Shown: positions 30,912-49,200 of the stretch, in pieces
Layout of the letters: each line of letters opens with the position of its first letter
How positions within the stretch are numbered: position 1 is the stretch's first letter
Origin: an uncultured Candidatus Saccharibacteria bacterium
Lineage (GTDB): Bacteria > Patescibacteriota > Minisyncoccia > Phycocordibacterales > UBA12088
Assembly (NCBI GenBank): GCA_964459635.1
Contig: CAYWMQ010000001.1
Span: forward strand, 8,342 to 72,341
Direction of reading: 5' to 3'
DNA: 64,000 bases
Program-made: the position numbers and the translations under genes
The notes under the pieces: generated by a model
What the model saw: only the letters and a program-made list of their open reading frames with translations
The model's database searches: none
What the model was told of the DNA's origin: nothing

Positions 30912-32315
30912 ATGAACATCACCACACCCCCCAGCACACGCGCGCTTGAGTCGGGCGTATACACGAGCGTCTCCTTTGTGGAAGACTCGAACATGCATGA
31001 GCTCGTACGCACCGATACAGGTGTCTACCGCATGGAAATGGGCATAAAGGACAGTATGCCCATGACCGCACGCCGCTTTCGCTTGCTCGTGCGTACGCTT
31101 GTACAGCACGCCAAAGGCGACAAGCGCAAGAGACTGGCCGTGTCGCTCGATGAGCTCTTGCGTATAGCGCCCCCCGACATGAGCAGGCTTGAACTTCTGC
31201 GTGCTTTTGCAGAAAATGCACACCTTGCAAACTATGCGTTCGTTGCGTTCAAGGAAAAACCAAAAGAAGGATGGCCTTTTATGGATGAAATAGCGCTTGC
31301 GGGGGCACTTACGGCAGAGGACAAGGCGGTGCTTCGCATAGGGGAGCTCGTGGCGCGCGAAGTAAATGCCGCACGCGACCTGGCGAACACGCCGGGCGGC
31401 GACATGACGCCGGGCATCCTGGCCAAGCGTATTCAAGCGTCCGCGCGTGGGACCGAGGCAACGGTCAAAGTACTTGGGCGCGTACAAATGGAAAAGCTGG
31501 GCATGGGCGCTATTCTTGGCGTAGCGAAGGGTTCAAAGGAAGAGCCAAAGTTCATCATCGTAGAGTACAAGGGCGCAAAAAAGAAGCAGCCAACGGTGCT
31601 TGTGGGAAAGGGTATCACTTTTGACACAGGCGGTCTCAACTTGAAGCCGGGTAACGCCATTTCGGACATGCATCTCGATATGTCCGGCGGCGCGGCGGTC
31701 GCGCACGCGGTCATAGCGGCGGCGCGCCTCAAGCTCCCTGTACATGCCGTGGCGCTCATACCAGCAGCCGAAAATATGCCGTCGGGGGAGAGCTACCGCC
31801 CGGGTGACATACTGCGCTCACTTTCGGGGAAGACCATTGAAGTGTTTGATACGGATGCCGAAGGCCGCATCGTGCTTGCGGACGCGCTCACCTACGCTGC
31901 GCGATATAAGCCTGAGCTCGTGGTCGACGTGGCAACGCTCACGGGAGCGGCTATGGTGGCGCTTGGAACGAAGGCGTCAGCACTTTTTTCGGCAGATGAC
32001 GCGCTCCGTGCGCGCATGCTTGCGCTCGCGGAGTTAAGCGGTGATTATTGCTGGCCACTCCCCATGTGGGAAGAATATAAAGAGCGCGTCAAGGGTAGAT
32101 TCGGCGATGTGGCCAACCTTCCGGAGTCCAACTACCGCTACGGCGGTTCGACCGATGGGGCCATGTTTCTTGCGGAATTTGCGCAGGGCTACCCCTGGGT
32201 CCACATAGACATGGCCCCGCGCATGACGAGCGACAAGAGCGACCAGCTCTCGCCGGGAGCCACCGGCGAGCCTGTGCGGATGTTGGTGCGTTTGCTTGAG
32301 AGCGTCTCCCGCTAG
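30912..32315 (+). CDS. pepA: leucyl aminopeptidase (peptidase M17)
   Basis: M17 signature NTDAEGRL present as FDTDAEGRIVLADALTYA. Lys/Asp metal ligands at VGKGITFDTGG. Start taken at ATG 30912; the track's TTG 30831 extension lies inside the hairpin element. Confidence 0.85.
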   Translation: MNITTPPSTRALESGVYTSVSFVEDSNMHELVRTDTGVYRMEMGIKDSMPMTARRFRLLVRTLVQHAKGDKRKRLAVSLDELLRIAPPDMSRLELLRAFAENAHLANYAFVAFKEKPKEGWPFMDEIALAGALTAEDKAVLRIGELVAREVNAARDLANTPGGDMTPGILAKRIQASARGTEATVKVLGRVQMEKLGMGAILGVAKGSKEEPKFIIVEYKGAKKKQPTVLVGKGITFDTGGLNLKPGNAISDMHLDMSGGAAVAHAVIAAARLKLPVHAVALIPAAENMPSGESYRPGDILRSLSGKTIEVFDTDAEGRIVLADALTYAARYKPELVVDVATLTGAAMVALGTKASALFSADDALRARMLALAELSGDYCWPLPMWEEYKERVKGRFGDVANLPESNYRYGGSTDGAMFLAEFAQGYPWVHIDMAPRMTSDKSDQLSPGATGEPVRMLVRLLESVSR

Positions 32316-32412
32316 TGCGCGTCAATTTGGCGCGCGTACACAGGGTATGGTCTGCTCGCGCTATCCACGGTCTCCGCTAACGTTGCGCTTGTACTTGGGG
32401 TACACTGAAGCT

Positions 32413-33699
32413 ATGCGAGTGGCATTCGCGCGCTTTTTTCCGTACGTCTACGCGGCGTGTATTGTCGTGCTGGCTGCCGCGCCGCTCGTGTGGGCATATG
32501 CACAGGAAGCTTTCGATACCACGGAGCCTGAGCGTCCACCGGCCGCTATAGAAAGCTCGGCGTCATTTGCGGTGACGCCCGTGGTGTCCAACGAGAAAGC
32601 AAAAGCGCGCGACATCATCAAGAAAGAGCTTTTGCTCGAAAATAAGAGTGCCGAGCGCATAGGGCTGCGCGCCAAAGTGGAAAACGTAGACCCTGGCGGC
32701 GGCGCGGTGTCGTTCGTATCGCCGGGTGAAGCGGATCTGGCTCATTCGCTCGCGAACTGGGTGGAAATAACACGCGGCGTCGTAGAGCTTGAGCCCGGTG
32801 AGAGTCGCAAAGTGCCGTACCTCATACATGTGAACGTTGTGGCGGAGCCGGGGACCTACTATGCGCGCATCGCATTTACGGACGGCTCACCTGAGTATGA
32901 GACTGACAAACGACCTGATGGAACCAGCCTTCTTTTGACGGTAGAGGTGGCTGATGACGCACGCGAGCGCCTGCAGCTGGCCGGTTTTGTTGCGTCCCGG
33001 TCGCTTGTGTTCGGCGCCGACGCGGCGTTCACGTACCGCCTTGAAAATGTGGGCAACAGAGACCTGGAGCCGCGCGGCACTATCCGCATATTCAACAGAC
33101 GCGGCGAGGAGGTCGGGTCTGTGCCGCTCAACGCGGACGGCGTGTCGCTCTCGCCCGCGAGCAAGCAGCAGCTCGCCACGGCATGGAACGCGAGCGGCCG
33201 TTTCGGCAAGTACAAGGCATTTTTGGACCTGGAGTATGGCACGGAGCAGCTCGCGAGTGTGCAGGACACCGTCTACTTTTGGGTGTTCCCATGGAAAGAA
33301 ATTCTCGCGTCCATGTTCGGCGTGCTCGTGCTTGCGGTGGTGGGCACCTATGTCATCCACATGCGCACCATGGCGCGGCCGGCGCATGTGTATGCGCCCG
33401 TGTATCCCGAAGCACAGTCTCGCATGTCACCTAAGTCCGTTCTGATGCCGAGCGGTGCTCGCAGCCACGGCGATTTCGCAGATCAGCCTGTGGCTTCTGC
33501 GGCGCCGGTGCGCGCTACGGCTCAGGCTGCACCTGCTCGCGTCGTAGCTCAGCCTATGCCGGCGGCTCCTCCCGCGGTTGTCCTGGCGCGCAAGGAAGCG
33601 GCATCGCCCGGCCCGGTGGTCTCGCTCGCGCCTCGCAGTCGAGGTGGCTCTCATGTAGATGCTCAAGCTCACACCGTTCAACTCAAACCCCGCCGGTAG
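32413..33699 (+). CDS. membrane-anchored surface protein, paralog 1 of 3
   Basis: ATG 32413 gives the signal peptide MRVAFARFFPYVYAACIVVLAAAPLVWAYAQE. A ~300-aa beta-rich ectodomain carries the motif EPGTYYARIAF. A C-terminal TM helix ILASMFGVLVLAVVGTYVIHM is followed by a Pro/Ala-rich cytoplasmic tail. The architecture is reminiscent of DUF916/DUF3324 cell-surface proteins; this is inference only. Confidence 0.55.
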   Translation: MRVAFARFFPYVYAACIVVLAAAPLVWAYAQEAFDTTEPERPPAAIESSASFAVTPVVSNEKAKARDIIKKELLLENKSAERIGLRAKVENVDPGGGAVSFVSPGEADLAHSLANWVEITRGVVELEPGESRKVPYLIHVNVVAEPGTYYARIAFTDGSPEYETDKRPDGTSLLLTVEVADDARERLQLAGFVASRSLVFGADAAFTYRLENVGNRDLEPRGTIRIFNRRGEEVGSVPLNADGVSLSPASKQQLATAWNASGRFGKYKAFLDLEYGTEQLASVQDTVYFWVFPWKEILASMFGVLVLAVVGTYVIHMRTMARPAHVYAPVYPEAQSRMSPKSVLMPSGARSHGDFADQPVASAAPVRATAQAAPARVVAQPMPAAPPAVVLARKEAASPGPVVSLAPRSRGGSHVDAQAHTVQLKPRR

Positions 33700-35092
33700 G
33701 GTGGCGCTACAAAGTGCCTCGCGTGCACCCACAACAGGGGCGCGGTTTTTCTTGCTTCTTATACTTTCTACTTTCTACTTCCTACTTGCTACTTTCTACC
33801 TTCTACTTTCTACTCCCGTCTTTGCCCAAGACGCCCTCACGCTCACCATCACACCGCCCTTGATACAGGTGAACTTGGATCCCGGGCAAACATGGACGAG
33901 CAGCATTCGAGTAGTGAACGGCAACCGCTACGAGGTTACGGTATACGCAGACCCCGTGCCGTTTACGGCAGAAGGTGAGGGTGGCCGCCCGCGCATAGTC
34001 TTGTCGACCAAAGCAGCGGACAATGCCACGGCAAACGGCGTAGCGGCGTGGCTGGACGTGCCGCAGGAACCTATCATCATCGGCCCCGAGCAGACGCACG
34101 AGGTACCGTTCACCATACGCGTGCCGGCAGACGCGCCGCCGGGCGGACATTATGCCGCGGTCCTGATAGGCAACAAGCCGGGTGCGGGCGCGGCGGAAGG
34201 CGGCACGGTCACGGTCTCAAGCTCTATTGCGTCATTGCTCCTGCTCACCGTTTCCGGCAATATCGACGAGCGCGGGCGTATACGCGACTTTGTGACGGAG
34301 CGGCATCTCTACGATAAGCCTGAGGCGCGCTTTTCGCTGCGCTTTGAGAACCAAGGCAATGTGCACATCCAGCCGCAGGGGGATATAGTCATTTACAACC
34401 ACTTCGGTAAAGAGCGCGGGAGAGTCACCCTTGGCCAAGGGGGCAACTTCGGCAATGTGCTTCCCGGAAGTATCCGTCAGTTCAGCTTCGAATGGATCGC
34501 GGACGCGGGAGGCTGGGATATCGGCCGGTACCGCGCAGAGGCAACGTTTGCATATGGTAAAGACAGCAAACGGTTCGCCAGTGCGACAACATACTTCTGG
34601 GTGCTTCCACTTGGGCGTATCGCGCTGCTTGCAGGCGGCTTGGCGCTGTTCATATGGTTTATCGGGTGGAGCTTGCGGCTTTACGTACGCCGAGCGTTGG
34701 CTCTGGAAGCACAGCGTATCGCTAGCACCGATCCTCCGCTTCAAGCCCGTGCGGCAGTGCGCCCCGCGGAGCCCGTTCAGGAGCATGTGGCACCACAGAT
34801 CGTTTCACCACGTACGTACTTGCGGCCTATCGAGCGAGGTATCGTCGATCTGCGCGCCCTCGCGCGTCCCGTTGATTCCGAATCCGGTCCGCAAGCGGGG
34901 CATGTGCTCGTCAGCCGTTTGCACCGCACGCGCGCGTTTCTACGCAGGTACCGTGTCTTTTTCATCTTCCTTGCCGTCGTAGGGGCAGCGCTTCTGATGG
35001 GGCGGACCTTGCTGCGCGATGTGCTCACGTACGAGCGCGCATACGAAGTGGAGGTGCTGGATCCGGAAGCACCGAAGTCAGACGCACCGTAA
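33659..35092 (+). CDS. membrane-anchored surface protein, paralog 2 of 3
   Basis: Phe/Leu-rich signal peptide ...FFLLLILSTFYFLLATFYLLLSTPVFA-QD. The real start is possibly TTG 33752. Motif PPGGHYAAVLI. C-terminal TM LLAGGLALFIWFIGWSL followed by YVRRAL. Its 5' end overlaps the tail of paralog 1 in another frame. Confidence 0.55.
   Translation: MLKLTPFNSNPAGRVALQSASRAPTTGARFFLLLILSTFYFLLATFYLLLSTPVFAQDALTLTITPPLIQVNLDPGQTWTSSIRVVNGNRYEVTVYADPVPFTAEGEGGRPRIVLSTKAADNATANGVAAWLDVPQEPIIIGPEQTHEVPFTIRVPADAPPGGHYAAVLIGNKPGAGAAEGGTVTVSSSIASLLLLTVSGNIDERGRIRDFVTERHLYDKPEARFSLRFENQGNVHIQPQGDIVIYNHFGKERGRVTLGQGGNFGNVLPGSIRQFSFEWIADAGGWDIGRYRAEATFAYGKDSKRFASATTYFWVLPLGRIALLAGGLALFIWFIGWSLRLYVRRALALEAQRIASTDPPLQARAAVRPAEPVQEHVAPQIVSPRTYLRPIERGIVDLRALARPVDSESGPQAGHVLVSRLHRTRAFLRRYRVFFIFLAVVGAALLMGRTLLRDVLTYERAYEVEVLDPEAPKSDAP
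33762..33817 (+). repeat. heptanucleotide tandem repeat (TACTTTC)n, 8 units (4 perfect), inside the signal-peptide coding region of paralog 2
   Basis: tactttc tactttc tacttcc tacttgc tactttc taccttc tactttc tactccc. The unit is 7 nt, so it is not a multiple of 3. Confidence 0.75.
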
Positions 35093-36200
35093 CACGTGCG
35101 TAGCACGTGTTGTGCAAGAGTGCTCCATCCTTTGGGGACGTTGTGGCGTAGACGGCATTGTGCGATGCAGGGGTGATCTCGCGCGGGCAGTGTCACTCGC
35201 TCGCGTACCGCTTCAAGCACAGGGCCTGGGCATAAAAGTGCAGCCGTCAACCATTGAAGAGCGTCTTGATCCGGGCGGCTCGGTGGAGGGTGTGCTCACT
35301 ATCACCAACGAGAGCGATGCTCCACAGGTCTACAAGATAGGTACGCGCGACGTAACAGGCATGGAGCTCTCCGGCAGACCGAACTTTTCGGATAAACCGG
35401 GCGGTGAAGACCCGTATGCTGCGTCTGCGTGGGTACGCCCGCAGAAAGACAGCGTTCCTCTTGCGGCATGGGAGGCGGTAGAGGTGCCGTACCGTATTGA
35501 GGTACCGACTGACGCGAGTCCCGGCGGGTACTTTGCGGCTATCTTCGTGACGCGCGAGGCAGATGGTATTGCCGAGTCGGGAGCGAGTGTTGGCTTTCAC
35601 GTGGCGGCGCTCGTAAACCTACGCGTCAACGGCGAGGTGCGTGAGGACTTGGTGCTGAAGGAGTTTAGTACCGGGCGCGCTGTACATACCGACCTCGAGG
35701 TGGAATTTACCGCTCGCATGGAAAACACCGGCACCGTACATGAGCGGCCCGTGGGTATCATTACCATTGCGGACATGTTCGGCAAAGAAGCGGGGAAGGT
35801 GATGCTTAACGAAAACGAGGGGGCGATACTGCCACGTTCCGAGCGTCTATTTGATACTACGTGGAAGGGAGAGGGCTTCCACGTGGGCCGGTACACGGCA
35901 CTTCTCAGCGTGACATATGGGAATGACGCGAAGCAAACGGTCACACGTTCGACTACGTTTTGGATTGTACCGCTCCGGGACACGGCAGCCTTTGCGGGAG
36001 CTATTGTAGTGGCACTTGCGCTCATCTTGCTTGGTATGCGGGCCTATGTACGCCGGCAGCTTCGCCGTGCGGGCTACGATGCACAGACCGTACGTATCCG
36101 TGAGCAGAGCTCTTTTGCGGCAAAGCTTAGTCGTGTGCTTGTCTGGCTCGCGGCCCTACTCGCACTCATGGTCGTTGCAGTGGTGGTGTTCTTCGCGTAG
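35019..36200 (+). CDS. membrane-anchored surface protein, paralog 3 of 3 (start uncertain)
   Basis: Shares the motif SPGGYFAAIFV and the C-terminal TM AFAGAIVVALALILLGM followed by YVRRQL, plus a second C-terminal TM. No convincing signal peptide lies upstream of the conserved ...PLQAQG position. The track start overlaps paralog 2 by 73 nt. Confidence 0.45.
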   Translation: MCSRTSAHTKWRCWIRKHRSQTHRNTCVARVVQECSILWGRCGVDGIVRCRGDLARAVSLARVPLQAQGLGIKVQPSTIEERLDPGGSVEGVLTITNESDAPQVYKIGTRDVTGMELSGRPNFSDKPGGEDPYAASAWVRPQKDSVPLAAWEAVEVPYRIEVPTDASPGGYFAAIFVTREADGIAESGASVGFHVAALVNLRVNGEVREDLVLKEFSTGRAVHTDLEVEFTARMENTGTVHERPVGIITIADMFGKEAGKVMLNENEGAILPRSERLFDTTWKGEGFHVGRYTALLSVTYGNDAKQTVTRSTTFWIVPLRDTAAFAGAIVVALALILLGMRAYVRRQLRRAGYDAQTVRIREQSSFAAKLSRVLVWLAALLALMVVAVVVFFA

Positions 36201-36315
36201 ACCCCCTGTGCACGTGTGTGTTGCGCGCAGACATCAGCCTTGATACGGTAGAGGTACCGATCGTGCATGTCGCCTTCACACTCTAAACTCTACACTATCC
36301 ACTAAGTACCCAGGT

Positions 36316-36675
36316 ATGCTCTGGCGCTACACGCGACGCGATACAAAAGTCCTGCTGCTTGCAACGCTGCTCACCGTGAGCGGCTACGCGTACCTTTTGG
36401 CGGACAGCTGGAAGCATGAGCTTGTGCAGAGCATGCAGACAGCCCAGGTAGTGGGGGTGTTTGCGTCCGTGGCACCCAACGAAGCGAACACGCGCATGGC
36501 CGCTCTTGACGCGCGCGAGGCGGAATTACAGGCGCGCGAGTCTTTGCTTTTCGAAGAGATAACGCGTCGCGACCGGACCATGCTCGTCATCGTCACAGCG
36601 ATAGGCGCGGTGCTCTTGGTTCTCATTTTGCTTAATTTCTACCTTGACCAAAAGCGGCGGATGTCGCTGGCGTGA
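36316..36675 (+). CDS. small membrane protein (119 aa, 2 TM with a coiled-coil middle)
   Basis: TM segments LLLATLLTVSGYAYLL and MLVIVTAIGAVLLVLILLNFYL. Preceded by the heptamer array at 36279-36299. Confidence 0.45.
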   Translation: MLWRYTRRDTKVLLLATLLTVSGYAYLLADSWKHELVQSMQTAQVVGVFASVAPNEANTRMAALDAREAELQARESLLFEEITRRDRTMLVIVTAIGAVLLVLILLNFYLDQKRRMSLA

Positions 36676-36833
36676 AAACGAAAGGCACCTGCCGATAGCA
36701 GGAAAGTTAAAAGTGCATTACACGCGTTAACGTCGGCGGTCGTCTAACTGGACCTACACGGTCTAAGGCATTTTGGTGGCGTGAAGTCATGGCAAACCGT
36801 CTATGGCTTTCACTCCCGTGTGCTGTTACGTAG

Positions 36834-36861
36834 CGTGTTACGTAGCATGCTACGTAACACG
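36834..36861. promoter_or_regulatory. perfect 28-bp palindrome CGTGTTACGTAGCATGCTACGTAACACG
   Basis: Self-complementary across 28 nt. It has a flanking direct repeat GTTACGTAG (36825-36833 and 36837-36845) and lies in a ~500-bp region with no credible ORF. Confidence 0.5.
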
Positions 36862-36929
36862 CTGTGCGGTAGGTGTTCAGCCGCCCGATTACGCAGCCAA
36901 GCTGTGCGAGTTCTGTTCGGGCGCGCCCC

Positions 36930-36954
36930 ATGTTCGACTTACGAAGTCGAACAT
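36930..36954 (+). other. hairpin ATGTTCGAC-ttacgaa-GTCGAACAT
   Basis: Perfect 9-bp stem with a 7-nt loop in the same non-coding region. It does not form a tRNA cloverleaf. Confidence 0.4.
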
Positions 36955-37049
36955 ACGAGCACACCGACTCAAATGCACCTATAAAATTTCTACTTTTGTG
37001 GACTACGCGCGCTGCTATCTGGCTACTCGGTGTAGTCACGTTTGGATTT

Positions 37050-37094
37050 CCTGCCTGCCGGCAGGCAGGTACATTTTAACTTTTGACTTTTGTT
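37050..37094 (+). terminator. perfect 20-bp GC palindrome CCTGCCTGCCGGCAGGCAGG followed by T-rich heptamers (ttttaac ttttgac ttttgtt)
   Basis: Terminator-like: a GC hairpin followed by TACATTTTAACTTTTGACTTTTGTT. It could end an unannotated transcript from 36676-37050, or act as an operator upstream of the FGE gene. Confidence 0.4.
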
Positions 37095-37178
37095 ACCCTC
37101 CCCCTCCAGGTGGATAAGCTGTTCATGGTGTAGCTCCACTCGCGGTACAATATAGGTACGGATCATATCCGCCCCCGA

Positions 37179-38039
37179 ATGATCCAGTCACTCACACGGA
37201 CCGTTGCGGTCTCTGTGTGCTCCGTTATTTTGACGACGCTTGCAGTGAATGCAACGGACAGCATCAATGTACCCGCCGGTAGCATGCTCGCGGGCGTGTT
37301 TGGGGCGAGTACCTCTGTGGACACCGGTCCGTGTCCCAAAGATATGCGCCTGGTGAAGCAAGCACTCGTTCCCTTTTGTGTAGATGCGTACGAGGCGGCG
37401 GCAGGTGACAGTTGCCCGTATGAGACGCCCCGAAGCGTTGACGAGACGAACAAGAACCTTTCGGGGGCTTCATGTGCACCGGTATCCAAGGCCGGCACCA
37501 CACCATGGCGTTTTGTGGACGTTGTCCAAGCGCAAGCGGCCTGCTCCAGAGCCGGCAAGAGGCTGCTGACTGCAGACGAATGGTACAAAGCCTCACTTGG
37601 AACCCCCGACACGTCGTCAGAGTTTACCGGTGAGCAGTGCAACGTGGCGCGCAACCTCGCCGATGGTGTCGCCCCTACGGGAAGCGCCGCCCGGTGCGTA
37701 TCCGATGCCGGTGCATACGACATGGTGGGCAACGTGTGGGAGTGGGTGGATGGCGCGGTACGTGATGGTGTGTTCGAGGGACGTTCTTTGCCACGGAGCG
37801 GGTACGTGCAGGGCGCGGATACGAGCGGCATAGCGTACGAAACAGCGAGCGGCGCGCAAGCTGCGTTCGGCAGAGACCGCTTCTGGTCGGACAGCATCGG
37901 CACGATGGGGCTGATGCGTGGCGGCTACTTCGACAGCGAAGGTGATGCGGGTGTATTCAGCATATACGCTGCCAGTCCCCCCACCTTTGCCGGGGAGGCG
38001 GTAGGCTTCCGCTGTGCCACTGCACCGAAGAACCCGTAA
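37179..38039 (+). CDS. formylglycine-generating enzyme family protein (FGE-sulfatase / SUMF1 domain), secreted
   Basis: Signal peptide MIQSLTRTVAVSVCSVILTTLAVNA. Hallmark motifs YDMVGNVWEWVDG, RGGYFDSE and a C-terminal GFRCATAP. A possible -10 TACAAT lies at 37146-37151. Confidence 0.8.
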   Translation: MIQSLTRTVAVSVCSVILTTLAVNATDSINVPAGSMLAGVFGASTSVDTGPCPKDMRLVKQALVPFCVDAYEAAAGDSCPYETPRSVDETNKNLSGASCAPVSKAGTTPWRFVDVVQAQAACSRAGKRLLTADEWYKASLGTPDTSSEFTGEQCNVARNLADGVAPTGSAARCVSDAGAYDMVGNVWEWVDGAVRDGVFEGRSLPRSGYVQGADTSGIAYETASGAQAAFGRDRFWSDSIGTMGLMRGGYFDSEGDAGVFSIYAASPPTFAGEAVGFRCATAPKNP

Positions 38040-38124
38040 GTCACATATGGAAGAACGAGAAAGTCCACCCCCTGTAATAGAGGAGCATGCGCAGCGAGAC
38101 GCATCGACCTTGTGTGTACGTAAG

Positions 38125-40020
38125 ATGGCAGGCCGTCACTTTTCGTTGCGCTTAGGCAGTCGACAGCCTTTTTTGTCTTTTGTCTTTTGTCTTTTGTATC
38201 TCGTGCTCCTGTTCTCTTTTCTCTATACGTCGCACTCGGCATTTGCCACAAGCTATCTCTCTCGCATTTCAGACCTTATCTCCACCAGTGCGCCGGGCGC
38301 GGCTGCGAACCACACGCTTCGTTTCACTATAGCTCAAGCGATACCGCCCAACGGTGCCATTGAAGTGCTTTTCAACCGCGGGGGTTTCACTATCCCCGGG
38401 GCACTTAATTTTACCGATGTGGACCTTGGTTTTTCGGCAGTATCCGGGGGCCCCTATACCGAGCGTCCGCTATCTTCCGTGCAGACGGGCGGTACGGACC
38501 GGGTGGTGGTCACAAGCGGTAGCGCGGGCAAGATACGGTTCGACCTCAACACGTCGGTAGGTATTGCGGCAGGCAGCGAGTTGCGCATCAAGATAGGCAC
38601 GAACGCCACGTTCGGTACGGTGGGTGATCAGCGCATTCTGCTCCCTACGGCCACCACATCTCACCCGGTGACTGTGTACACATACGATGCGGCTGATGCC
38701 GAGCTTGACTACGGCGAAACGCGTATAGCGGTAGTGGAGCAAGTGACAGCGGGCCCGGTAGATACCGATGACGTCACGCCGCCCGTGGTGCTTGCGGCAT
38801 ACCCTTCCGGGCTGCTTCAAGTGGGAACGAGGGCTGTACAGATGTGGGTAGTTACCGATGAGCTTACGGCGTGCAGATGGGCGACCTCAAGTATGGCGTA
38901 CGCAAGCATGCCGTACTCTTTCACCTCCACAAGCACATTCGGGCTTGCGTACTGGAATTTTGCCACATACGGCGGACTTGAAGATGATACTGAGTACAAT
39001 GCGTACATCCGCTGCGTTGACTTTCGTTCTAACGAAATAGATCCCGATTACATCCTTTCCTTTACCGTAGGTATTACGCCCGGTAGTGCAAGCTCAACAG
39101 CCACCACGACCGGCACAGGTACCGGCACAGGTACGGGCACATCGACCGGCACATCGACCGGCACCGGTACCGGCACCGGTACCGGAGGAGGACCGTCGGG
39201 TTCCGGCTCGGGCAATGGCCCCAATGGCGGCGATGGGGCAGGGTCGGGCGGGGGTGGGTCCGGGCAGTCGGGCTCCGGTGACAAGCTGCCCCAGGCGGAT
39301 GTGCAGGTGTCGGGATGGGCGTACCCGGGCTCTACGGTAACACTGCTTCGCGACGGGGCGATAGTGGCTACGCAGGCCGCGGGAGGCGGCGGCGAGTTCC
39401 TGCACCTTACGGAAGGTATCGACCGCGGCATATACTCCTTTGCCGTGTATGCGACCGACTCAAAGGGAACACGTAGTGCGACATACGCCACTACGCTCGG
39501 CCTGCGTTCGAATACGCTCAACAAGCTTGCGAACATTATGCTCCCGCCCACCGTCTCGGTCGTGGCCGCTTCCGTAGACCCGGGTAAGCCTGTCGAGGTG
39601 AGCGGTTACTCCGCGCCAAGTGCCAAAGTCACCGCATGGCTGCGGCCCAGGCTTGCGGTGGTATCGGCGGCGGACGTGGTGGCGAGTACCACCGCGCTCG
39701 CGAACGGCATATACACGCTCAGCATTCCGACCACGGGGCTCACACAGGGTACGTACGAGCTCGTTGCGCAAGCTGCTCATGCGAACGGCACCGTGCAGAG
39801 CGACAAGAGCGCGCGGCTTGCCGTAGGACTTGGCGTTCAAGTGACACAAAACACGGGCTGCAAAGACGGCGACCTCAACTGCGACGGCTCAGTGAACCTC
39901 ATAGACTTTTCGATCCTTCTTTTCAACTGGAACACCGCGAGCACCGTTGCAGACATAAACAAAGACGGGACCGTCTCGCTGCCGGACTTCTCGATACTGC
40001 TCTTCAATTGGACGGGGTAG
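38125..40020 (+). CDS. secreted surface protein with a Thr/Gly-rich linker and a C-terminal type-I dockerin
   Basis: ATG 38125 gives MAGRHFSLRLGSRQPFLSFVFCLLYLVLLFSFLYTSHSAFA. Beta-rich domains, then the linker TTGTGTGTGTGTSTGTSTGTGTGTGTGGGPSGSGSGNGPNGGDGAGSGGGGSG, then more Ig-like domains. The final 55 aa, DLNCDGSVNLIDFSILLFNWN and DINKDGTVSLPDFSILLFNWTG, form two dockerin calcium-binding repeats. Confidence 0.7.
   Translation: MAGRHFSLRLGSRQPFLSFVFCLLYLVLLFSFLYTSHSAFATSYLSRISDLISTSAPGAAANHTLRFTIAQAIPPNGAIEVLFNRGGFTIPGALNFTDVDLGFSAVSGGPYTERPLSSVQTGGTDRVVVTSGSAGKIRFDLNTSVGIAAGSELRIKIGTNATFGTVGDQRILLPTATTSHPVTVYTYDAADAELDYGETRIAVVEQVTAGPVDTDDVTPPVVLAAYPSGLLQVGTRAVQMWVVTDELTACRWATSSMAYASMPYSFTSTSTFGLAYWNFATYGGLEDDTEYNAYIRCVDFRSNEIDPDYILSFTVGITPGSASSTATTTGTGTGTGTGTSTGTSTGTGTGTGTGGGPSGSGSGNGPNGGDGAGSGGGGSGQSGSGDKLPQADVQVSGWAYPGSTVTLLRDGAIVATQAAGGGGEFLHLTEGIDRGIYSFAVYATDSKGTRSATYATTLGLRSNTLNKLANIMLPPTVSVVAASVDPGKPVEVSGYSAPSAKVTAWLRPRLAVVSAADVVASTTALANGIYTLSIPTTGLTQGTYELVAQAAHANGTVQSDKSARLAVGLGVQVTQNTGCKDGDLNCDGSVNLIDFSILLFNWNTASTVADINKDGTVSLPDFSILLFNWTG
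38168..38197 (+). repeat. heptanucleotide tandem repeat (CTTTTGT)3 plus a variant unit, inside the signal-peptide coding region of the dockerin protein
   Basis: cttttttgt cttttgt cttttgt cttttgt; rotated, this is (TTTTGTC)n, matching the intergenic TTTTGAC arrays. Covers codons 15-25 of the gene. Confidence 0.75.
39109..39192 (+). repeat. 12-nt tandem repeat (ACCGGCACAGGT-like, 7 units) encoding the TGTG linker
   Basis: accggcacaggt x2, acgggcacatcg, accggcacatcg, accggcaccggt x2, accggaggagga. In-frame microsatellite. Confidence 0.7.
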
Positions 40021-40024
40021 CGTT

Positions 40025-40166
40025 GAAAACTGAAAAACAAGATAACTGAAACAAAAAAAACAACGACATGCGTCTCGGACGATGCGATTGAGGTATCAAG
40101 TTGTGTAGGGGCAGTCGCTTTAAGCTCGCGTTTTTTGTTTTCTCTATCTTTTGTTTTTCAGTTTTC
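40025..40166 (+). promoter_or_regulatory. long inverted repeat of heptamer arrays between the dockerin gene and hsp20
   Basis: GAAAACTGAAAAACAA (40025-40040) and its exact reverse complement TTGTTTTTCAGTTTTC (40151-40166) flank 110 nt that contain an A8 run. The left arm starts 5 nt after the dockerin-gene stop. Confidence 0.45.
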
Positions 40167-40287
40167 TCTTTATCCACACGTTACGCTCGCATATGCACAT
40201 GCGCATGCACGTGTGGTGCTATACTCTGAGTAACAACGCTCCGGGCGACCGGCCATCACGCGTTCTTTAGGATAAGTTCTATCTCCT

Positions 40288-40794
40288 ATGGCTACATTCA
40301 TGGATAAGCTCAAAGGCCGCGGCCTTACCGAAAAGGGCGGAAGTCTCTCCGCCGGCAGTGCCGCCGATCATGCGGGTACTCCCGCGATGGGCCACCAAGA
40401 GGTGGTCCCGAGCCGCGCACTCCAGCTTCCCGTAGACGTGTTCCAATCGGACGACGAGATCATCATATACGCACAGCTTGCCGGTATGGACATGCATACG
40501 CTCGACGTTTCCATAGCGGGAGATAATGACGTGGTGGCCATCCAAGGCACAAGCTTGCGCCCCGAGCATCTCATGCATGATGCGCATGCGGGCAGAAATG
40601 GGGACTATACGCTCGAAGAGTGCCACTGGGGTGATTTTTACCGCCAGATCATCTTGCCCGATGAAATTGATCCGGAGCGTGCGGAAGCCAAAACGAAAGA
40701 CGGCGTGCTTGCGCTACGTCTGCCGCTGGCAGGCAAGGCTGTCAAAGGCCGCAAACTGAACATCGTGCGTGCGGATGAACAGCCGCAGCAATAG
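40288..40794 (+). CDS. Hsp20/alpha-crystallin family small heat-shock protein
   Basis: Alpha-crystallin domain from VDVFQSDDEIIIYAQLAGMDMHTLDVSIAGDNDVVAIQGT to GDFYRQIILPDEIDPERAEAKTKDGVLALRLP. TATACT lies upstream at about 40220. Confidence 0.8.
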   Translation: MATFMDKLKGRGLTEKGGSLSAGSAADHAGTPAMGHQEVVPSRALQLPVDVFQSDDEIIIYAQLAGMDMHTLDVSIAGDNDVVAIQGTSLRPEHLMHDAHAGRNGDYTLEECHWGDFYRQIILPDEIDPERAEAKTKDGVLALRLPLAGKAVKGRKLNIVRADEQPQQ

Positions 40795-40810
40795 CGCACG
40801 AGCTCGCGCT

Positions 40811-42346
40811 ATGCTCGCGTCGAATATACACCGTGTTGTTCATAAAAATGCCGTAGCGCAGGCGTATACCCGCGTCAAAGTTTTTGTGGCGCTTGTTTTT
40901 TTTCCGTTTTTCTTGTTTCTTGTTTCTTGTTTCTTGTTTTCTACCTCCGCCCACGCCGCCTCCTACTCCTTTTCGCCCGCGTCCGGCTCCTACGAGGTCG
41001 GCAAAACGTTCACCGTGTCCGTCATGGTGGACCCGGGCACCGATGCGGTGAACACGGGCGATGGAGCGCTCTCGTATGACACCGCCAAGCTCACCGCAGT
41101 GTCGGTGTCCAAAGAGGGTTCCGTTTTCAATCTTTGGGTGACCGAGCCCGCGCTTAACGCGGGAGCGGGCACGGTGACTTTTGCGGGTGGTGCCACCACG
41201 CCCTTTTCAGGCTCTAAGCGAGTCGTCACGGTTAGCTTCAAAGCGAAGGCGGAGGGCGCCGCCACGGTAAAACTTGATAAGGGTACGCTGCTGGCAGGCG
41301 CCGGTCAGAACGTGCTTGCCGGATCCCTGCCCACCGCTTCTTTCACCATCACTCCCGCTGCCGCCAAGCCGCCGGTGGAGGAAAAGCCGGACACCCCTGC
41401 ACCCGCAAAGCCGGCACGTGCGGTGAATATCCCCGTACCTGATGCTCCTGTTATCAAGAGTTCCACGCACAAAGAAGAGGGCACCTGGTACAACCAGAAC
41501 ACCGTGAAGCTCACGTGGGACCTACCCTACGGTGTGACCGGGCTCAAGAAGCTGTGGAGCGAGAAAGCCGACGCAGAGCCCACCGAAGTGCATGAGCCGC
41601 CCATACCCGACTGGACAAAGGAGAACGTGGCCGACGGTGTGTGGTATTTCCATGCCGCGTATAAGAACAGGGGCGGATGGGGAAGCTCCACCGCGTTCAA
41701 GGTGCAGATAGATACTACGCCACCGAAAGAGTTTACCGTGACGGGCACCGGAGGAGACCTTGCCGCGCAGCTTTCATGGGCTGCTGAGGATGAACTCTCC
41801 GGTGTGGTCGTATACCGCATAGCCGTAGACGACGGCCGGCCGCGGGATGTACAGCCCTCCGAGCTTATAGCCGGCGGATATACGCTCACCAACATAGATC
41901 CTGGCGAGCATAGCATTATCGTGACGGCTGTCGATGCTGCGGGCAACGAGCGGGAAGCTCGCACTAAGGTCACCGCGACAGGTGAGCTCCCTCCCGCAGA
42001 AGGAGCGCAGGAAGTTGAAACATCCGGCTTCGGAGCCATCTACTGGGTATCACTCATCTTCATGGCGCTTCTTGCAGGTGCGGTAACGCTCCTTGTGCTG
42101 GAGCGGCGCAAGCATCATGAGGAGCGCGAGCTCATCAAGCGTGAGGCGATGGAGGCGGGCGACAAGCTCATCAACGTATTCGGCGTGCTGCGCGACGAGA
42201 TAGAAGAGCGCGTGCTTGACCTCTCGCACAAGCCCAACATGACCGACAACGAGCGCGAGATATTGGAAGGCCTTAAAGATGCCCTGGATGTATCCGAAGA
42301 GCTTATCGACAAGGAGATAGAAGACATTCGCAAGCTCCTCAAGTAG
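40811..42346 (+). CDS. membrane-anchored protein with an N-terminal cohesin-like domain, Pro-rich linker, FN3/Ig-like domains, a C-terminal TM and a cytoplasmic coiled-coil tail
   Basis: ATG 40811 gives the signal peptide MLASNIHRVVHKNAVAQAYTRVKVFVALVFFPFFLFLVSCFLFSTSAHA. Cohesin-like beta-sandwich pattern SGSYEVGKTFTVSVMVDPGTDAVNTGDGALSYDTAKLTAVSV...GTVTFAGG...VVTVSFKAKAEGAATVKL. Pro-rich linker EEKPDTPAPAKP. TM AIYWVSLIFMALLAGAVTLLVL. The cohesin assignment comes from pattern recognition only. Confidence 0.55.
   Translation: MLASNIHRVVHKNAVAQAYTRVKVFVALVFFPFFLFLVSCFLFSTSAHAASYSFSPASGSYEVGKTFTVSVMVDPGTDAVNTGDGALSYDTAKLTAVSVSKEGSVFNLWVTEPALNAGAGTVTFAGGATTPFSGSKRVVTVSFKAKAEGAATVKLDKGTLLAGAGQNVLAGSLPTASFTITPAAAKPPVEEKPDTPAPAKPARAVNIPVPDAPVIKSSTHKEEGTWYNQNTVKLTWDLPYGVTGLKKLWSEKADAEPTEVHEPPIPDWTKENVADGVWYFHAAYKNRGGWGSSTAFKVQIDTTPPKEFTVTGTGGDLAAQLSWAAEDELSGVVVYRIAVDDGRPRDVQPSELIAGGYTLTNIDPGEHSIIVTAVDAAGNEREARTKVTATGELPPAEGAQEVETSGFGAIYWVSLIFMALLAGAVTLLVLERRKHHEERELIKREAMEAGDKLINVFGVLRDEIEERVLDLSHKPNMTDNEREILEGLKDALDVSEELIDKEIEDIRKLLK
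40912..40939 (+). repeat. perfect heptanucleotide tandem repeat (CTTGTTT)4, inside the signal-peptide coding region of the cohesin-like protein
   Basis: cttgttt x4 at 40912-40939, with one more unit at 40893-40899. Covers codons about 34-43. Confidence 0.8.
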
Positions 42347-42638: not shown

Positions 42639-43253
42639 ATGCGGAGCGCGGTATTTAAACATGTACATCGTTTTCCCGCACGTTTGCGTGAGCCGAAAGC
42701 GGCCCTGGCGCTCTTGGGTGCGGCGCTTTTTTTGATGGCCGTGGCTGCCGTATTTGCAACGAGTGAGGAACGTACGATACACATTTTCCCTACGTCCGTT
42801 TCCGATGCCGGGTGGAGCGGTGCTCAGAGGTCGCTTGAGCAAACGCTTTCTCAAAACGCCATTTTTGATGACTTCTCCGCAGAAAATAGCGCGAGCCTTT
42901 ACTTTACGCGTAACGCGAGCCGTTCTTCGGAGGGAGCACCGCATGAGGCCGTGAGCGCCGGCGACAGCACGTCGGGCGGCGACGCTGTTTCGTCCGAGGA
43001 CGCGTCGAACGATACGGAAGCGAGTGAAGTGCAGGGCGATCAGTCGGCTGAGTCTGGGGATCTACTAGACGACGCCGCAGACGCCGAAGGTCAGGTGCAG
43101 GAAGAGACACCCGCACCCGAGCAGGAAGAAGAGGCCACACAAGAAGACACGCCCACGCCACAGGTTTCTGAGGAGCCGGAACCGCTTGCCGACCTAAGCC
43201 CGTATGGGTATGTTCGCGATCTGTTGCGCGCCGCGCGTGGTACCGCCGCATAG
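42639..43253 (+). pseudogene. signal-anchor plus acidic-linker ORF, probably the severed N-terminus of the 6482-aa giant protein
   Basis: 204 aa with the TM ALALLGAALFLMAVAAVFA followed by a D/E/S-rich linker. It ends at TAG 43251-43253 and is in the same frame as the giant ORF 43278. Composition is continuous across the stop: ...AARGTAA*AQTQDEAQVQNIAPVDA.... Confidence 0.45.
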
Positions 43254-43277
43254 GCACAAACACAGGATGAGGCACAG

Positions 43278-46200
43278 GTGCAAAATATCGCGCCGGTCGA
43301 TGCGGTGATCGAAGGTGTCGAGTACGCAGAGCCTGCCCCGGGCGAGACAGCAAGCGGTGCAGAGGTTGCGCCGGAGGCGGAGCGGGGCGCGGATGCGAGT
43401 AGTGCCGAGACACGTGCACGCCAAGCGGACGAGGATGTGCGCGTGTGCACCGTACTGGATATCCCCTGTCACACCATACGCTACGACGGCTTTGATATCG
43501 GCAGCGTACTTGCGGATCACACAGTACGCGAGTACACACTGCGGCTTTCGCTTGGTGCGCGAGTCGAGGGCGAGAGCTTCACCCCGGACAAGCTGCTTGT
43601 GCGGTACATGAGCGCCGGCACATGGCACATTGCGGGAGAAGTGGTGATCGACCGCGAACTGTCCAACTTCGACAGCGGCGGGCACTTCTCATTCCCCTTG
43701 CCGGGGCTCACCGCGTGGGATTCCTTGGCCGACCTTGCTGTGGAGCTTGAGTACGTTCGGCATGGTACTGCAGAGACAGAGTTCTATGTCGACAGCGTGT
43801 GGGTGGATGCGCGGTATGCGGTGGTGGACGAGGGTGAGGAGCTGCAACTGGCACCGAACATCTTACCCGAGCTCGCGGTACTAGAAGACTCGCGGCGGCC
43901 GGACATGCTTCTTGTCGGGGATGAGCGCATTACTCTGCCGAGGACAGACGCCGTGCCGGGCGACGAGCTCGTCATTCGCAGCGACCATGACGTATACGAT
44001 GGCCTCACACGGGTGCGCTCGTACCTGTCCGTTACGAACCACGGAGACACGGAAATGTATGCGGATCTCGTAGTACGTACGGGCCGCCATGCGGAAGTAG
44101 TGGGACTGCGTGAGCGCGTGCGTGCGGTGCCGCAGTCTACGTTGGTGCCCGAGTACAGTGACGTGGCGTATTTGTGTGAAGGTGGGTGGCAGCCGGGTAG
44201 CATGTCGCAGGGTGTAGCCGCGCCATCTGACGTACCGGCAGATACAAACACGACAGACGGGGAAGAAGTGGAGGATGGCACAGCGAGTTCCTCCGTATCG
44301 ATGACGGAAGCGCTTGTGAGCGATGGTACGGGATCCGCCACCCTAGATGACGTCGGCCCGGACGCTTCAGGTGAGACTGCAGACTCGGAGGGCGAACCCT
44401 ATACCTGCGCCGCGACAGGTGAAGAGCGCGTGTGCTCGTCTCTCAATGATGACGAGACGAACTGCATCGCCGAAGAAGAACGCATTTCGACCACTGAAGA
44501 AGTTGCATACCGTGAAGGATGGCAGCCGGTCGGCCTGCGGCCCTACCGTGAGCGCACGAGTTTCTGGCAGCGAGTGCTTCGCAGCGAGGCCACCACTACG
44601 TCGGAGTTGCCCAATGCGGTGGAGGCAGAGGAGCGTGTACGGCTTGCTCCGCGGGAGACGCGCTTTTTCGCGGTGGACGTCGAAGTGGGTGTGCAGCGTG
44701 CGGGTGAGTTTGCTTTTGAGCTTCGCGCGGGCGACACGCATGCCGAGCGGCGCATGTGGTGGCGCAGCGGCTACTCGCGTCGTGTGCCTCTTACCGTTCC
44801 TCGTGTAGAATCCGAAGCGCCCGAGGTGCCACTCCTGTATCGCGTGCGGATAGAGGAGAATGACGTGCCCGGGTTTTTCACCACAGCGCGGTTGGACGGA
44901 GGGGATGTGCGTTTTTATGATGCGGCGCTTCGTCTTGAGTTACCGAGCAAAGTGGTCTCATTTTCATACGTTGAACAGGCGGCAGAGTACTTGGTGGAGC
45001 TTGGAGAAAGCTCGACACAGGCGAGCTCAAGCATCTTTGCATATTACGGTAACGATACGGTGATGGAAGCGTCACGGATGCGCGCCCCCTCGCAAACAGA
45101 TACGCCCATAGAGTACGTCCGTGCGGCGGAGTCCGCTACGGGGGCGCTCGTGTCTGTGACAAGTTTGCGTGACGGCAACACCATGCGTACGGGTGCGGGA
45201 GGTACGGAGGTGACACTCCACGAAGGTGAAGCGCTTGATATGGTGCTGGGAGAGGAGCCGCTCTATGCTCGCGGGCCCCTGCTCATACGCCCGGCCGACA
45301 CCGTGTCCTCAAAGGAAATGCGCGCGTTCGCGCTTACGCTTCCTGCGCATACCTACAGCCTCGCGCAAGGCACGTCGAGCCTCACGTATGTGGTAGAGCG
45401 CTACGCGAGCACAAGCCCCGAGCTGCGCTTTGGAGACGTGGAAGAGCTTCCGGTACCTGCGGTCGGTATTTTTGAGCCGCTCTCCTTTACCGACCAGCTC
45501 TCGCGCATACTGTACTTGCGCTCACTCACGGGCCCCGCGTACCACGACTTCCTTGAAGAGCTGCGCGACTTTGAGCTTGGCGATGAAGTGGTGTTTAAGC
45601 TCCGGTACAAGCCACAGCGGTGGGGTATCACGCGCTTTTTCCGCGGGCTTGTGCGCGACCGCCTCGCCACAGTGGCGGGCGTGCGTCTCCTGTACGGTGG
45701 GGAGGTCCTCACGGACGCGCGTTTTGACGTCTCGTACGGCGCAGAAGGCGAGTGGACCATCAAGCTTACAGAAGCGCCGAGAAGCCTCGTACCGGGCAAG
45801 TACTCCGTCGAGCTCACCATTGACGAAGTGGGCGAACTCTACACCGACACCTTTGATTTTTACTTCGGGGTGCTTGCCGTGAACACGCCGGAAGCCACGT
45901 ACGAGACGGGCAGCGTGGCCGAGTTCCACATGGCCGCGCTCGACGATCGTGGTGACACCATATGCGATGCGGAGCTGCGCTTGCTCATCACACCACCGTC
46001 CGGTCTGGCGGAGGAGATACCGGTAGAGCGCTCCACCACCTGCGGTCCCAACAACGTGACCGATGAGCCCGACTACCGCGCGCTCTATCGTTTGCGGGAG
46101 AGTGGCACGTACGACCTTGTTCTCACGCATGTAAACAGGGAGGGTGAGATAGTGCACCAGGTGCGCGATGCAGTGCACGCGGCCGAGCGCATGCCGTACA

Positions 46201-49200
46201 CGATAGAGCGGGCGGGCGCCACGCGCATCTGGCCGAAAGCGCCTTACACCATGCACCTCACCGTGTCGGCACGCGAGGACTGGAGCGGCACGTTGGTGGA
46301 GGCACTGCCGCGTGACTTCGTAGTGACGGACGCGGGCGGTGGGGAGTCGTCGGTGTGGGGCGGGGCCAAGCGTCTGAGTTGGGAGCTTACACTTGCGGCG
46401 GGTGAGTCGGTCACACTTTCGTACGAGTACGATGCGCCCGATCGCTCGCCGTACCTCTACCTCCTCGGGCCCGCGGAGCTTCGTGTGGGAGAGCAGGCTG
46501 CGTACCGCGAAGCAAAGAGCTGGAAGCTCGCCTCCGACGCGCTCGGGCAGTACACCGAGTCCTACGTCACCTTTACCCCAACGGTAAATGACACGTGGAC
46601 GACCATTGATCTCTCCGGTGCGCCGTACAGCATACCCGCGAACGCCATTCTTGAGATCGCGATCTCAAACGTGGACACAGGTAACGAGGCATACGGCGGT
46701 GTACGCAGCGGTGCCTCGACCACGCTCGACCGCCGTGTACGCATTCATGAGGCCGAGCCGTCAGGATCGGACGTCACCACCATGTTCGTACAAGCCAGTG
46801 CAACGTCAAGCATTCAGTACTACTCCGACGACACCAATGACATACGCTTCACCATTCTTGGCTACTGGACGAGCGGCACGTATACCGAGCGTTGGAGTGT
46901 GTTTGGACCTGCGGCGAACAACTGGACAACAGACTGGAACCTTAACACGTACGGCGTAGCCGACGGCAACGTGGCGGAAATCGTCTTAGTGAACACAGAT
47001 GGTTCAAATGAGTACGCTGCAGGCGTACGCACACTAGGCTCTACACTCACGCGCGAGGTGACCATACACGAGCCTGAACAGGGCGGCGTAGATACCGCTA
47101 CCATGCTTGTACGCGCGAGTACCTCCAACGCGACCATACGGTATCGTAACGCAAACGCTGCAATAGACTTCTACGTGGCAGGCTTCTTTTCGACGTTGCC
47201 CACCGGTCTTGAGTACTATGAGCGGTGGGACGACCTCGGCGGGCCAGCCAGCGCAAACACATGGACCGATCGCAGGCTCGACGACATCACCGTTCCCAAT
47301 TCAGCCATCGCAGATGTTGCGTATGCCAACACTGCTGCAGACGACACCACAGTCACGATCGGTGTGCGTGCCAACGGCTCGTCACTTTCCCGCACCGCCG
47401 AGCTGCACGAGGCTGAGGCGGGTGGCCAGAACCACGCGCGGTCGCACGTCACGGCAGGCAGTGATGCAAGCAGCACCATCGAATACTTCACCGGTAACAC
47501 CGCATACGACTCATTCCGGCTCGCCGGATACTGGGCAGCCGCCAACTATCCGCCCGATGCACCAACGCTCCACGACATACCGTTTGACAATGAAAAAACA
47601 GGGAGCTCGACACCGTACTTCGAGTTCACCGCATCCGACCCCGATGGCTCTAGCGATATCGTCTATCAGGTGCAGTGGGATGATGATGCCGACTTGGATG
47701 CTTCACCTCTGGGTGACCGCTCAAGTGATAATGAAACGGGCTGCTCTCCCAACTGTTTTGCCAATACCGTAAGCGGTGGCGACACCTCGCCTTTTACCGA
47801 GGGGCAGCGGATACGTTTCAGCATACAGAGTGCGCTCACGAGCGGTACCACATACTACTGGCGTGTACGTGCCAAAGACAGCAGCGGTTCGAACATCTAC
47901 TCCGAATGGACAGAGGTGCGTTCTTTCACATACGTGGCCGACACGAATCCGAAAGCGTGGTACCAAACAGCCGATGCGCAGTTTGACGGTGGTACTTTTT
48001 CGGGCGCGGAAACGTACGGTGCCAATTCCGTACGCCTTGCGACCACACCGCCCGTTGGCGCCATGGTGGCGTACGGCGAAGGTACGGTGGCGACACCACG
48101 GTACCAGATATGGAACGGTACCGCGTGGGGCGGAGAGCTCAGTGCGCAGAGCGCTACGGGTAGAATAAGCTGGACCGTACTGCGTGCCGCTCCCACACGG
48201 GATGAATATGTCCTGGTGACGCAAACCGCCACAGGCACCGTATTGGCGCAGGTGTACAACGGCACAAGCGGTACGTGGGGCAATGCACGCGTGATGACGA
48301 GCGCGGCCCCAAGCGCCGATCGTCGCGCGGTTGACGTGGCGTACCGCGGTCTTTCGGGTGAGGCGGTGGTGACGTACTGCGATGGTGATACCGACCCAAG
48401 CACGAACATTTGGAACGGCACGAACTGGTCCGCCACCACCACCCTCGACACGCAGTTCAACAGCGCCTGCAACTGGGTCGCGCTCGCTGCAAGTGACGCG
48501 AGCGATGAAATAGCGGCGGTCGTGCAAGCCGACAGTACGAACACCACCTCCGACTTTGAGGCGCAGATACTGACCGGTACTACGTGGGGCAACAGTTACA
48601 CCGGGGGCAGCAATACGGCGGGTGAAGAATTTCTTGAACGCATGTCGATCGCGTATGAGGAGTCGGGGACGGAAGCGGTGGTCGTCGTAGGCAACGGCGG
48701 CACCGCCAGTTTTGTCAGTGCGGTCTGGAACACTACGGCACAAACATGGACCGCAAACGCAAATCGCGGCACGCAAGACGACTTTGAGTGGTCTGAGTTT
48801 GCTGTGGATGATGGGTCCGACAACCTCGGTCTATGCTACATAGACGAGGACAACCAAGTCCACATCGCCAAGTGGAACGGCACGAGTAACACGTGGGACG
48901 CGTACGATGCCGCGGGTGACCAAATAGACACTGGCGGAAAGGCAAACGGTACAACCGACTACCACGCTCGGCCCGTCACGTGCCGGTACGAAACAACAGC
49001 AGGCCGCGATGGCTATCTCATGGTGCCGTACTCTGATACCACGAACGCGCGGTATCGTGTGTGGAGCACATCACTTACCGTTGAGCAGTCCATCTCGACC
49101 ATAGAGGATTCATGGACCGTGAGCAGTGCGCGCACGGGGGATGGCCTCATTCTCACGCTTTGGCGCGACGATACCAACGACCGCTTCGACTTCTCCTACT

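What the first reader, a model, noticed from the sequence alone, without database searches (positions are those of the whole stretch)
38125..42346. Adjacent dockerin-bearing and cohesin-like membrane-anchored proteins flanking an hsp20: putative cohesin-dockerin surface assembly module
Gene 38125..40020 ends in a textbook double dockerin repeat (DxNxDGxVNxxDFSILLFNW, twice). Two genes downstream, a signal-peptide protein begins with a cohesin-like beta-sandwich and is TM-anchored with a cytoplasmic coiled-coil tail, which is a scaffoldin-like topology. Both genes carry heptamer phase-variation repeats. Outside cellulolytic Firmicutes such pairs are poorly characterised. Here the pair sits next to giant proteins and may tether large surface structures rather than glycoside hydrolases.
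Basis: partly seen in the sequence, partly recalled or inferred. Interest (0 to 1): 0.7.

Follow-up and report, generated by a model that had tools for sequence, protein, structure and literature searches.

The report
Membrane cohesin with docked surface protein
An uncultured Parcubacteria-type (candidate phyla radiation, CPR) bacterium encodes a membrane-anchored protein with one cohesin domain next to a secreted, enzyme-free protein ending in a dockerin; the pair is real, is conserved across many relatives, and most likely pins a surface protein to the cell, but it is a non-cellulosomal use of a known docking system and not a new kind of machine.

Summary
Gene 38125..40020 ends in a genuine double dockerin repeat (Pfam 28.2 bits, cutoff 22.9; calcium-binding positions conserved). 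Gene 40811..42346 starts with a genuine cohesin (Pfam 33.6 bits, cutoff 24.1; the AlphaFold model matches solved cohesins). It continues with two Ig/FN3 domains, one membrane helix and a very conserved cytoplasmic helical tail. An hsp20 gene lies between the two.

The order dockerin gene, hsp20, cohesin gene, giant gene recurs in Parcubacteria, Paceibacterota and Kaiserbacteria genomes down to about 37-40% identity. Each locus has exactly one dockerin. The dockerin is the best-conserved module of its protein.

The cargo is a chain of beta-sandwich domains with no enzyme. The giant proteins carry no dockerin or cohesin, so the idea that the pair tethers them is unsupported.

The heptamer repeats are real and non-random, but they belong to a genome-wide set of 7-bp arrays, have only about 4 copies, and showed no copy-number variation. 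Phase variation is therefore unproven.

Best reading: a one-cohesin membrane anchor that displays a docked surface protein. Binding between the two is inferred, not shown. Interest is moderate.

The parts
38125..40020 (+). DOC: secreted 631-aa protein made of four beta-sandwich domains, a Gly/Ser/Thr linker and a C-terminal dockerin. Public gene calls start it at 38047, giving 657 aa.
   Evidence: ORF. Pfam Dockerin_1. 101 homologues of about 600-640 aa. AlphaFold2 model pLDDT 79. Fold hits are only to Ig-like, S-layer, pilin and adhesin proteins, with no enzyme.
38125..38256 (+). DOC signal peptide (aa 1-44, cleavage motif AFA|T)
   Evidence: Read from the sequence. Helix 15-35 in the model. 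No signal-peptide predictor was available.
38171..38197 (+). Heptamer array TTTTGTC x3.9, 100% perfect, encoding part of the signal-peptide hydrophobic core
   Evidence: TRF. Sequence. Identical in a Logan contig seen in 20 or more samples.
38257..39072 (+). DOC N-terminal beta-sandwich domains N1 (aa 45-210) and N2 (aa 215-316, with conserved Cys250 and Cys297)
39079..39288 (+). Disordered Gly/Ser/Thr-rich linker (aa 319-388), encoded partly by 6/12-nt repeats at 39109-39185
   Evidence: pLDDT below 50 over residues 319-388. TRF.
39289..39840 (+). Two Ig-like domains (aa 389-572; weak Big_13 and Big_6 similarity)
   Evidence: Pfam, weak. PDB profile hit to biofilm-associated protein 7dm0. Model.
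39868..40017 (+). Dockerin: two 20-residue calcium-loop-plus-helix repeats, D583-W602 and D610-W629. The protein ends WTG right after repeat 2.
   Evidence: Pfam 28.2 bits against cutoff 22.9. Conserved D/N positions. Present at the C-terminus of every DOC orthologue. Mean pairwise identity 68%, against 35-41% for the other folded DOC domains.
40174..40226 (+). Palindrome CCACACGT-N27-ACGTGTGG followed by an extended -10-like box TGCTATACT. Probable promoter and operator of an hsp20-COH transcription unit.
   Evidence: The T-G-n-TATACT box is found upstream of hsp20 in 14 of 17 loci examined (the window and 13 others); the GCGTTCTTTAG leader motif or a close variant recurs in about 10 of them. 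Function is inferred.
40288..40794 (+). hsp20 (small heat-shock protein, cytoplasmic). Its stop codon lies 16 nt before the COH start codon.
   Evidence: Pfam HSP20, 38 bits. Directly upstream of COH in 17 of 18 non-redundant loci.
40811..42346 (+). COH: 511-aa type-I membrane protein. Order: signal peptide, cohesin, Pro-rich linker, two Ig/FN3 domains, membrane helix, conserved cytoplasmic tail.
   Evidence: A full-length family profile finds well over 100 representatives at the 50%-identity level with the same architecture.
40811..40957 (+). COH signal peptide (aa 1-49, cleavage motif AHA|A)
   Evidence: Sequence. Alignment A1.
40909..40939 (+). Heptamer array TTTCTTG x4.4, 100% perfect, encoding FLVSCFL-type hydrophobic core residues
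   Evidence: TRF. Same copy number in the 98%-identical strain L024. Logan contig L025 ends inside the array.
40958..41365 (+). Cohesin domain (aa 50-185)
   Evidence: Pfam 33.6 bits against cutoff 24.1. pLDDT above 90. Foldseek hits 2w1n and 6kgf_C. The family HMM finds exactly one in the window.
41450..41986 (+). Two Ig/FN3-like stalk domains (aa 214-302 and 303-392)
   Evidence: Model. PDB profile hits to the SiiE Big domain and chitinase FN3 domains. Pfam Big_13, weak.
42029..42100 (+). Membrane helix (aa 407-430), followed by ERRKHH, which fits the positive-inside rule
   Evidence: Sequence. Helix 409-472 in the model.
42101..42343 (+). Cytoplasmic two-helix tail (aa 431-511), ending HKPNMTDNEREILEGLKDALDVSEELIDKEIEDIRKLLK. 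It is the most conserved part of the protein.
   Evidence: 78% mean identity (86% for the last 40 aa), against 46-54% for the ectodomains, in 18 orthologues. The tail HMM hits only COH orthologues.
42639..62726 (+). Giant surface-protein gene. Conserved downstream neighbour of COH. Here it is split by one in-frame TAG at 43251-43253 into ORFs 42639..43253 (signal anchor) and 43278..62726.
   Evidence: Same reading frame. In 17 related loci both parts match one giant gene; in most it is a single ORF, in L009 it is itself split. Pfam DUF2341 and Ig_Rha78A_N only, with no dockerin or cohesin.
32296..38039 (+). Conserved upstream genes of the same envelope locus: 32296..33699; 33659..35092 and 35019..36200 (signal peptide, Ig-like domain, C-terminal membrane helix; faint WxLIP similarity); 36316..36675 (small membrane protein); 37179..38039 (secreted protein with an FGE-sulfatase-like domain).
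   Evidence: Pfam. Synteny across loci L001-L022.

Best explanation
This is a non-cellulosomal cohesin-dockerin display module that forms part of a conserved cell-envelope locus of Parcubacteria/Paceibacteria (CPR).

Proposed mechanism:
- COH is exported by Sec and its signal peptide is cut. It stays in the membrane through one C-terminal helix, with a single cohesin held away from the membrane on a Pro-rich linker and two Ig/FN3 domains.
- DOC is secreted separately. Its C-terminal dockerin binds two calcium ions and plugs into the COH cohesin.
- As a result DOC's four beta-sandwich domains and its 70-residue flexible linker are displayed non-covalently on the cell surface, as an adhesin-like or surface-layer-like protein.
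- The cytoplasmic tail of COH, which is more conserved than its ectodomain, probably contacts a conserved intracellular partner.
- hsp20 and COH are probably co-transcribed.

Shown: domain identities, predicted topology, a one-to-one count of cohesin and dockerin in the window and in every related locus except the most distant one (L005, which has two extra cohesin ORFs), conserved linkage, and absence of enzymes.

Inferred: that the two proteins bind each other, that DOC is surface-displayed, what DOC does, and any role of the tail or of hsp20.
For: Domain identity:
- Dockerin and cohesin both exceed the Pfam curated cutoffs.
- The cohesin fold is confirmed against solved cohesins, including one in a dockerin complex.
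- The calcium-ligand positions are conserved in 27 homologues.

Counts:
- A family-specific dockerin HMM finds exactly one dockerin per locus, always at the DOC C-terminus.
- There is exactly one cohesin in the window.

Linkage:
- DOC lies within 5 kb upstream of COH in 13 of 16 non-redundant loci. This includes the most distant one, L005 (36% identity), where hsp20 is absent.
- 18 of 29 COH homologues on contigs of at least 10 kb share their contig length with a DOC homologue.

Conservation:
- The dockerin is the most conserved DOC module, at 68% against 35-41%.

Topology:
- Both proteins have signal peptides. COH has one membrane helix followed by a basic cluster.

Cargo:
- DOC has no catalytic domain. 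Its fold hits are to S-layer, pilin, adhesin and BslA-like beta-sandwiches.

Breadth and precedent:
- The COH architecture is very widespread.
- An essential dockerin-domain envelope protein has been reported in a cultivated Saccharibacterium (PMC10633639).
- Non-cellulosomal cohesin-dockerin pairs that truly bind are known in archaea (summarised in PMC9012536).
Against: - No binding test or complex prediction could be run.
- A crude mirror-tree test gave no extra dockerin-cohesin covariation: r = 0.48, among the lowest of the 21 domain pairs.
- A subgroup (L012, L013, L021) has a clearly diverged cohesin but an almost unchanged dockerin.
- Three loci (L004, L015, L019) have hsp20-COH without a nearby DOC.
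- COH is linked even more tightly to hsp20 (17 of 18) and to the giant gene (14 of 17) than to DOC, so its main partner could be something else.
- A sequence profile of the family did not reach any solved cohesin at E<=1. Only Pfam and the fold comparison did.
- The helix residues of the dockerin (DFSILLFNW) are hydrophobic and do not match the recognition residues of characterised type-I dockerins. This comparison rests on my own knowledge.
Confidence: 0.6

Rival explanations
1. The two genes share a locus but do not bind each other. DOC and COH are both envelope proteins of one conserved surface locus. The dockerin docks onto a different partner, such as another cohesin elsewhere in the genome, a host-cell or cell-wall ligand, or the giant protein through an unrecognised module. 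The COH cohesin in turn binds something other than DOC.
For: - COH is linked more constantly to hsp20 and the giant gene than to DOC, and three loci lack an adjacent DOC.
- There is no specific dockerin-cohesin covariation.
- The distant locus L005 has two further cohesin ORFs, so extra cohesins exist in this group.
- Only 64 kb of this genome was visible.
Against: - In every locus with DOC there is exactly one dockerin, and in the window exactly one cohesin.
- The pair stays linked in L005 even though hsp20 and the giant gene are gone.
- The giants have no detectable dockerin or cohesin.
Confidence: 0.2
2. The dockerin is an orphan. The dockerin-like EF-hand pair serves only as a calcium-dependent structural cap or as a glycan or cell-wall anchor, as is suspected for many dockerins in genomes that lack cohesins. 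The COH cohesin is then a generic beta-sandwich spacer.
For: - Dockerin-only proteins are common outside cellulolytic bacteria (summarised in PMC9012536).
- The Saccharibacteria dockerin protein was discussed without a cohesin partner.
- The helix surface here is atypically hydrophobic.
Against: - A bona fide cohesin is encoded two genes away, and this arrangement is conserved.
- The dockerin is far more conserved than the rest of DOC, which suggests a constrained protein interface.
Confidence: 0.1
3. Both genes are phase-variable contingency genes. Slippage in the 7-bp arrays, whose unit length is not a multiple of three, switches DOC and COH on and off. This is the logic of the Neisseria opa CTCTT repeats and the E. 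coli K1 neuO heptanucleotide repeats.
For: - Perfect heptamer arrays lie in the 5' coding region of three secreted-protein genes: 33762, 38171 and 40909.
- The arrays are strongly non-random.
- A Logan contig seen in 20 or more samples ends exactly at the 40909 array, which would fit a branch in the assembly graph caused by a length variant (inference).
- Heptanucleotide phase variation is known in hmw1A and neuO.
Against: - The arrays have only 3.9-4.4 copies, and the 7.6-copy array is imperfect.
- The copy number is identical in a 98%-identical strain, and 34 of its 35 substitutions in COH lie at third codon positions.
- There are no length variants in the 90%-identity protein clusters.
- The arrays are absent from most orthologues.
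- The same kind of array fills intergenic spacers in L005 and L010, often as inverted pairs, so they are not specific to surface genes.
- Any T-rich heptamer encodes hydrophobic residues in all three frames, so such arrays are simply tolerated in signal peptides.
Confidence: 0.1

Closest known systems
Monovalent anchoring scaffoldins of cellulosomes, such as Clostridium thermocellum SdbA (one type-II cohesin plus SLH domains) and Ruminococcus flavefaciens ScaE (one cohesin plus a sortase signal). Cited from my own knowledge.
   Same: A single cohesin is held at the cell surface and captures one dockerin-bearing partner. The cohesin and dockerin domains belong to the same Pfam families.
   Different: The anchor here is a membrane helix with an 80-residue conserved cytoplasmic tail, not SLH domains or a sortase signal. 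The partner is not a scaffoldin or an enzyme. There are no carbohydrate-binding modules or glycoside hydrolases and no hierarchy of scaffolds.
Clostridium perfringens non-cellulosomal cohesin-dockerin pairs (the GH84C cohesin-FN3 construct, PDB 2w1n)
   Same: This is the best structural match to COH (E 7.6e-12). A cohesin is followed by an FN3-like domain, and the system is used outside cellulose degradation.
   Different: In C. perfringens the modules sit on secreted glycoside hydrolase toxins and assemble enzyme complexes (my own knowledge). Here neither partner has an enzyme domain and one partner is an integral membrane protein.
Archaeal and other non-cellulosomal cohesin and dockerin modules (Archaeoglobus fulgidus, ANME archaea; survey by Peer et al. 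2009, as summarised in PMC9012536)
   Same: Single or few cohesins occur without large scaffoldins, in organisms that do not degrade cellulose. A role in building cell-surface or cell-cell structures is presumed.
   Different: The lineage (CPR bacteria) and the architecture differ. The fixed dockerin-hsp20-cohesin-giant gene order and the conserved cytoplasmic tail are not described there. Peer et al. itself could not be read.
Essential dockerin-domain envelope protein SEML1_0315 of the Saccharibacterium Southlakia epibionticum (PMC10633639)
   Same: It is a dockerin-bearing envelope protein in Patescibacteria with no obvious cellulolytic role.
   Different: It comes from a different class of Patescibacteria. 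No cohesin partner was reported. Its sequence relationship to DOC was not tested.
Repeat-mediated phase variation in 5' coding regions: Neisseria opa (CTCTT in the signal-peptide region) and E. coli K1 neuO (heptanucleotide repeats)
   Same: A repeat unit whose length is not a multiple of three lies in the 5' or signal-peptide coding region of surface-related genes. The opa detail is from my own knowledge.
   Different: Known switches carry many more copies and show copy-number polymorphism. Here there are about 4 copies, no polymorphism was seen, and similar arrays are mostly intergenic.

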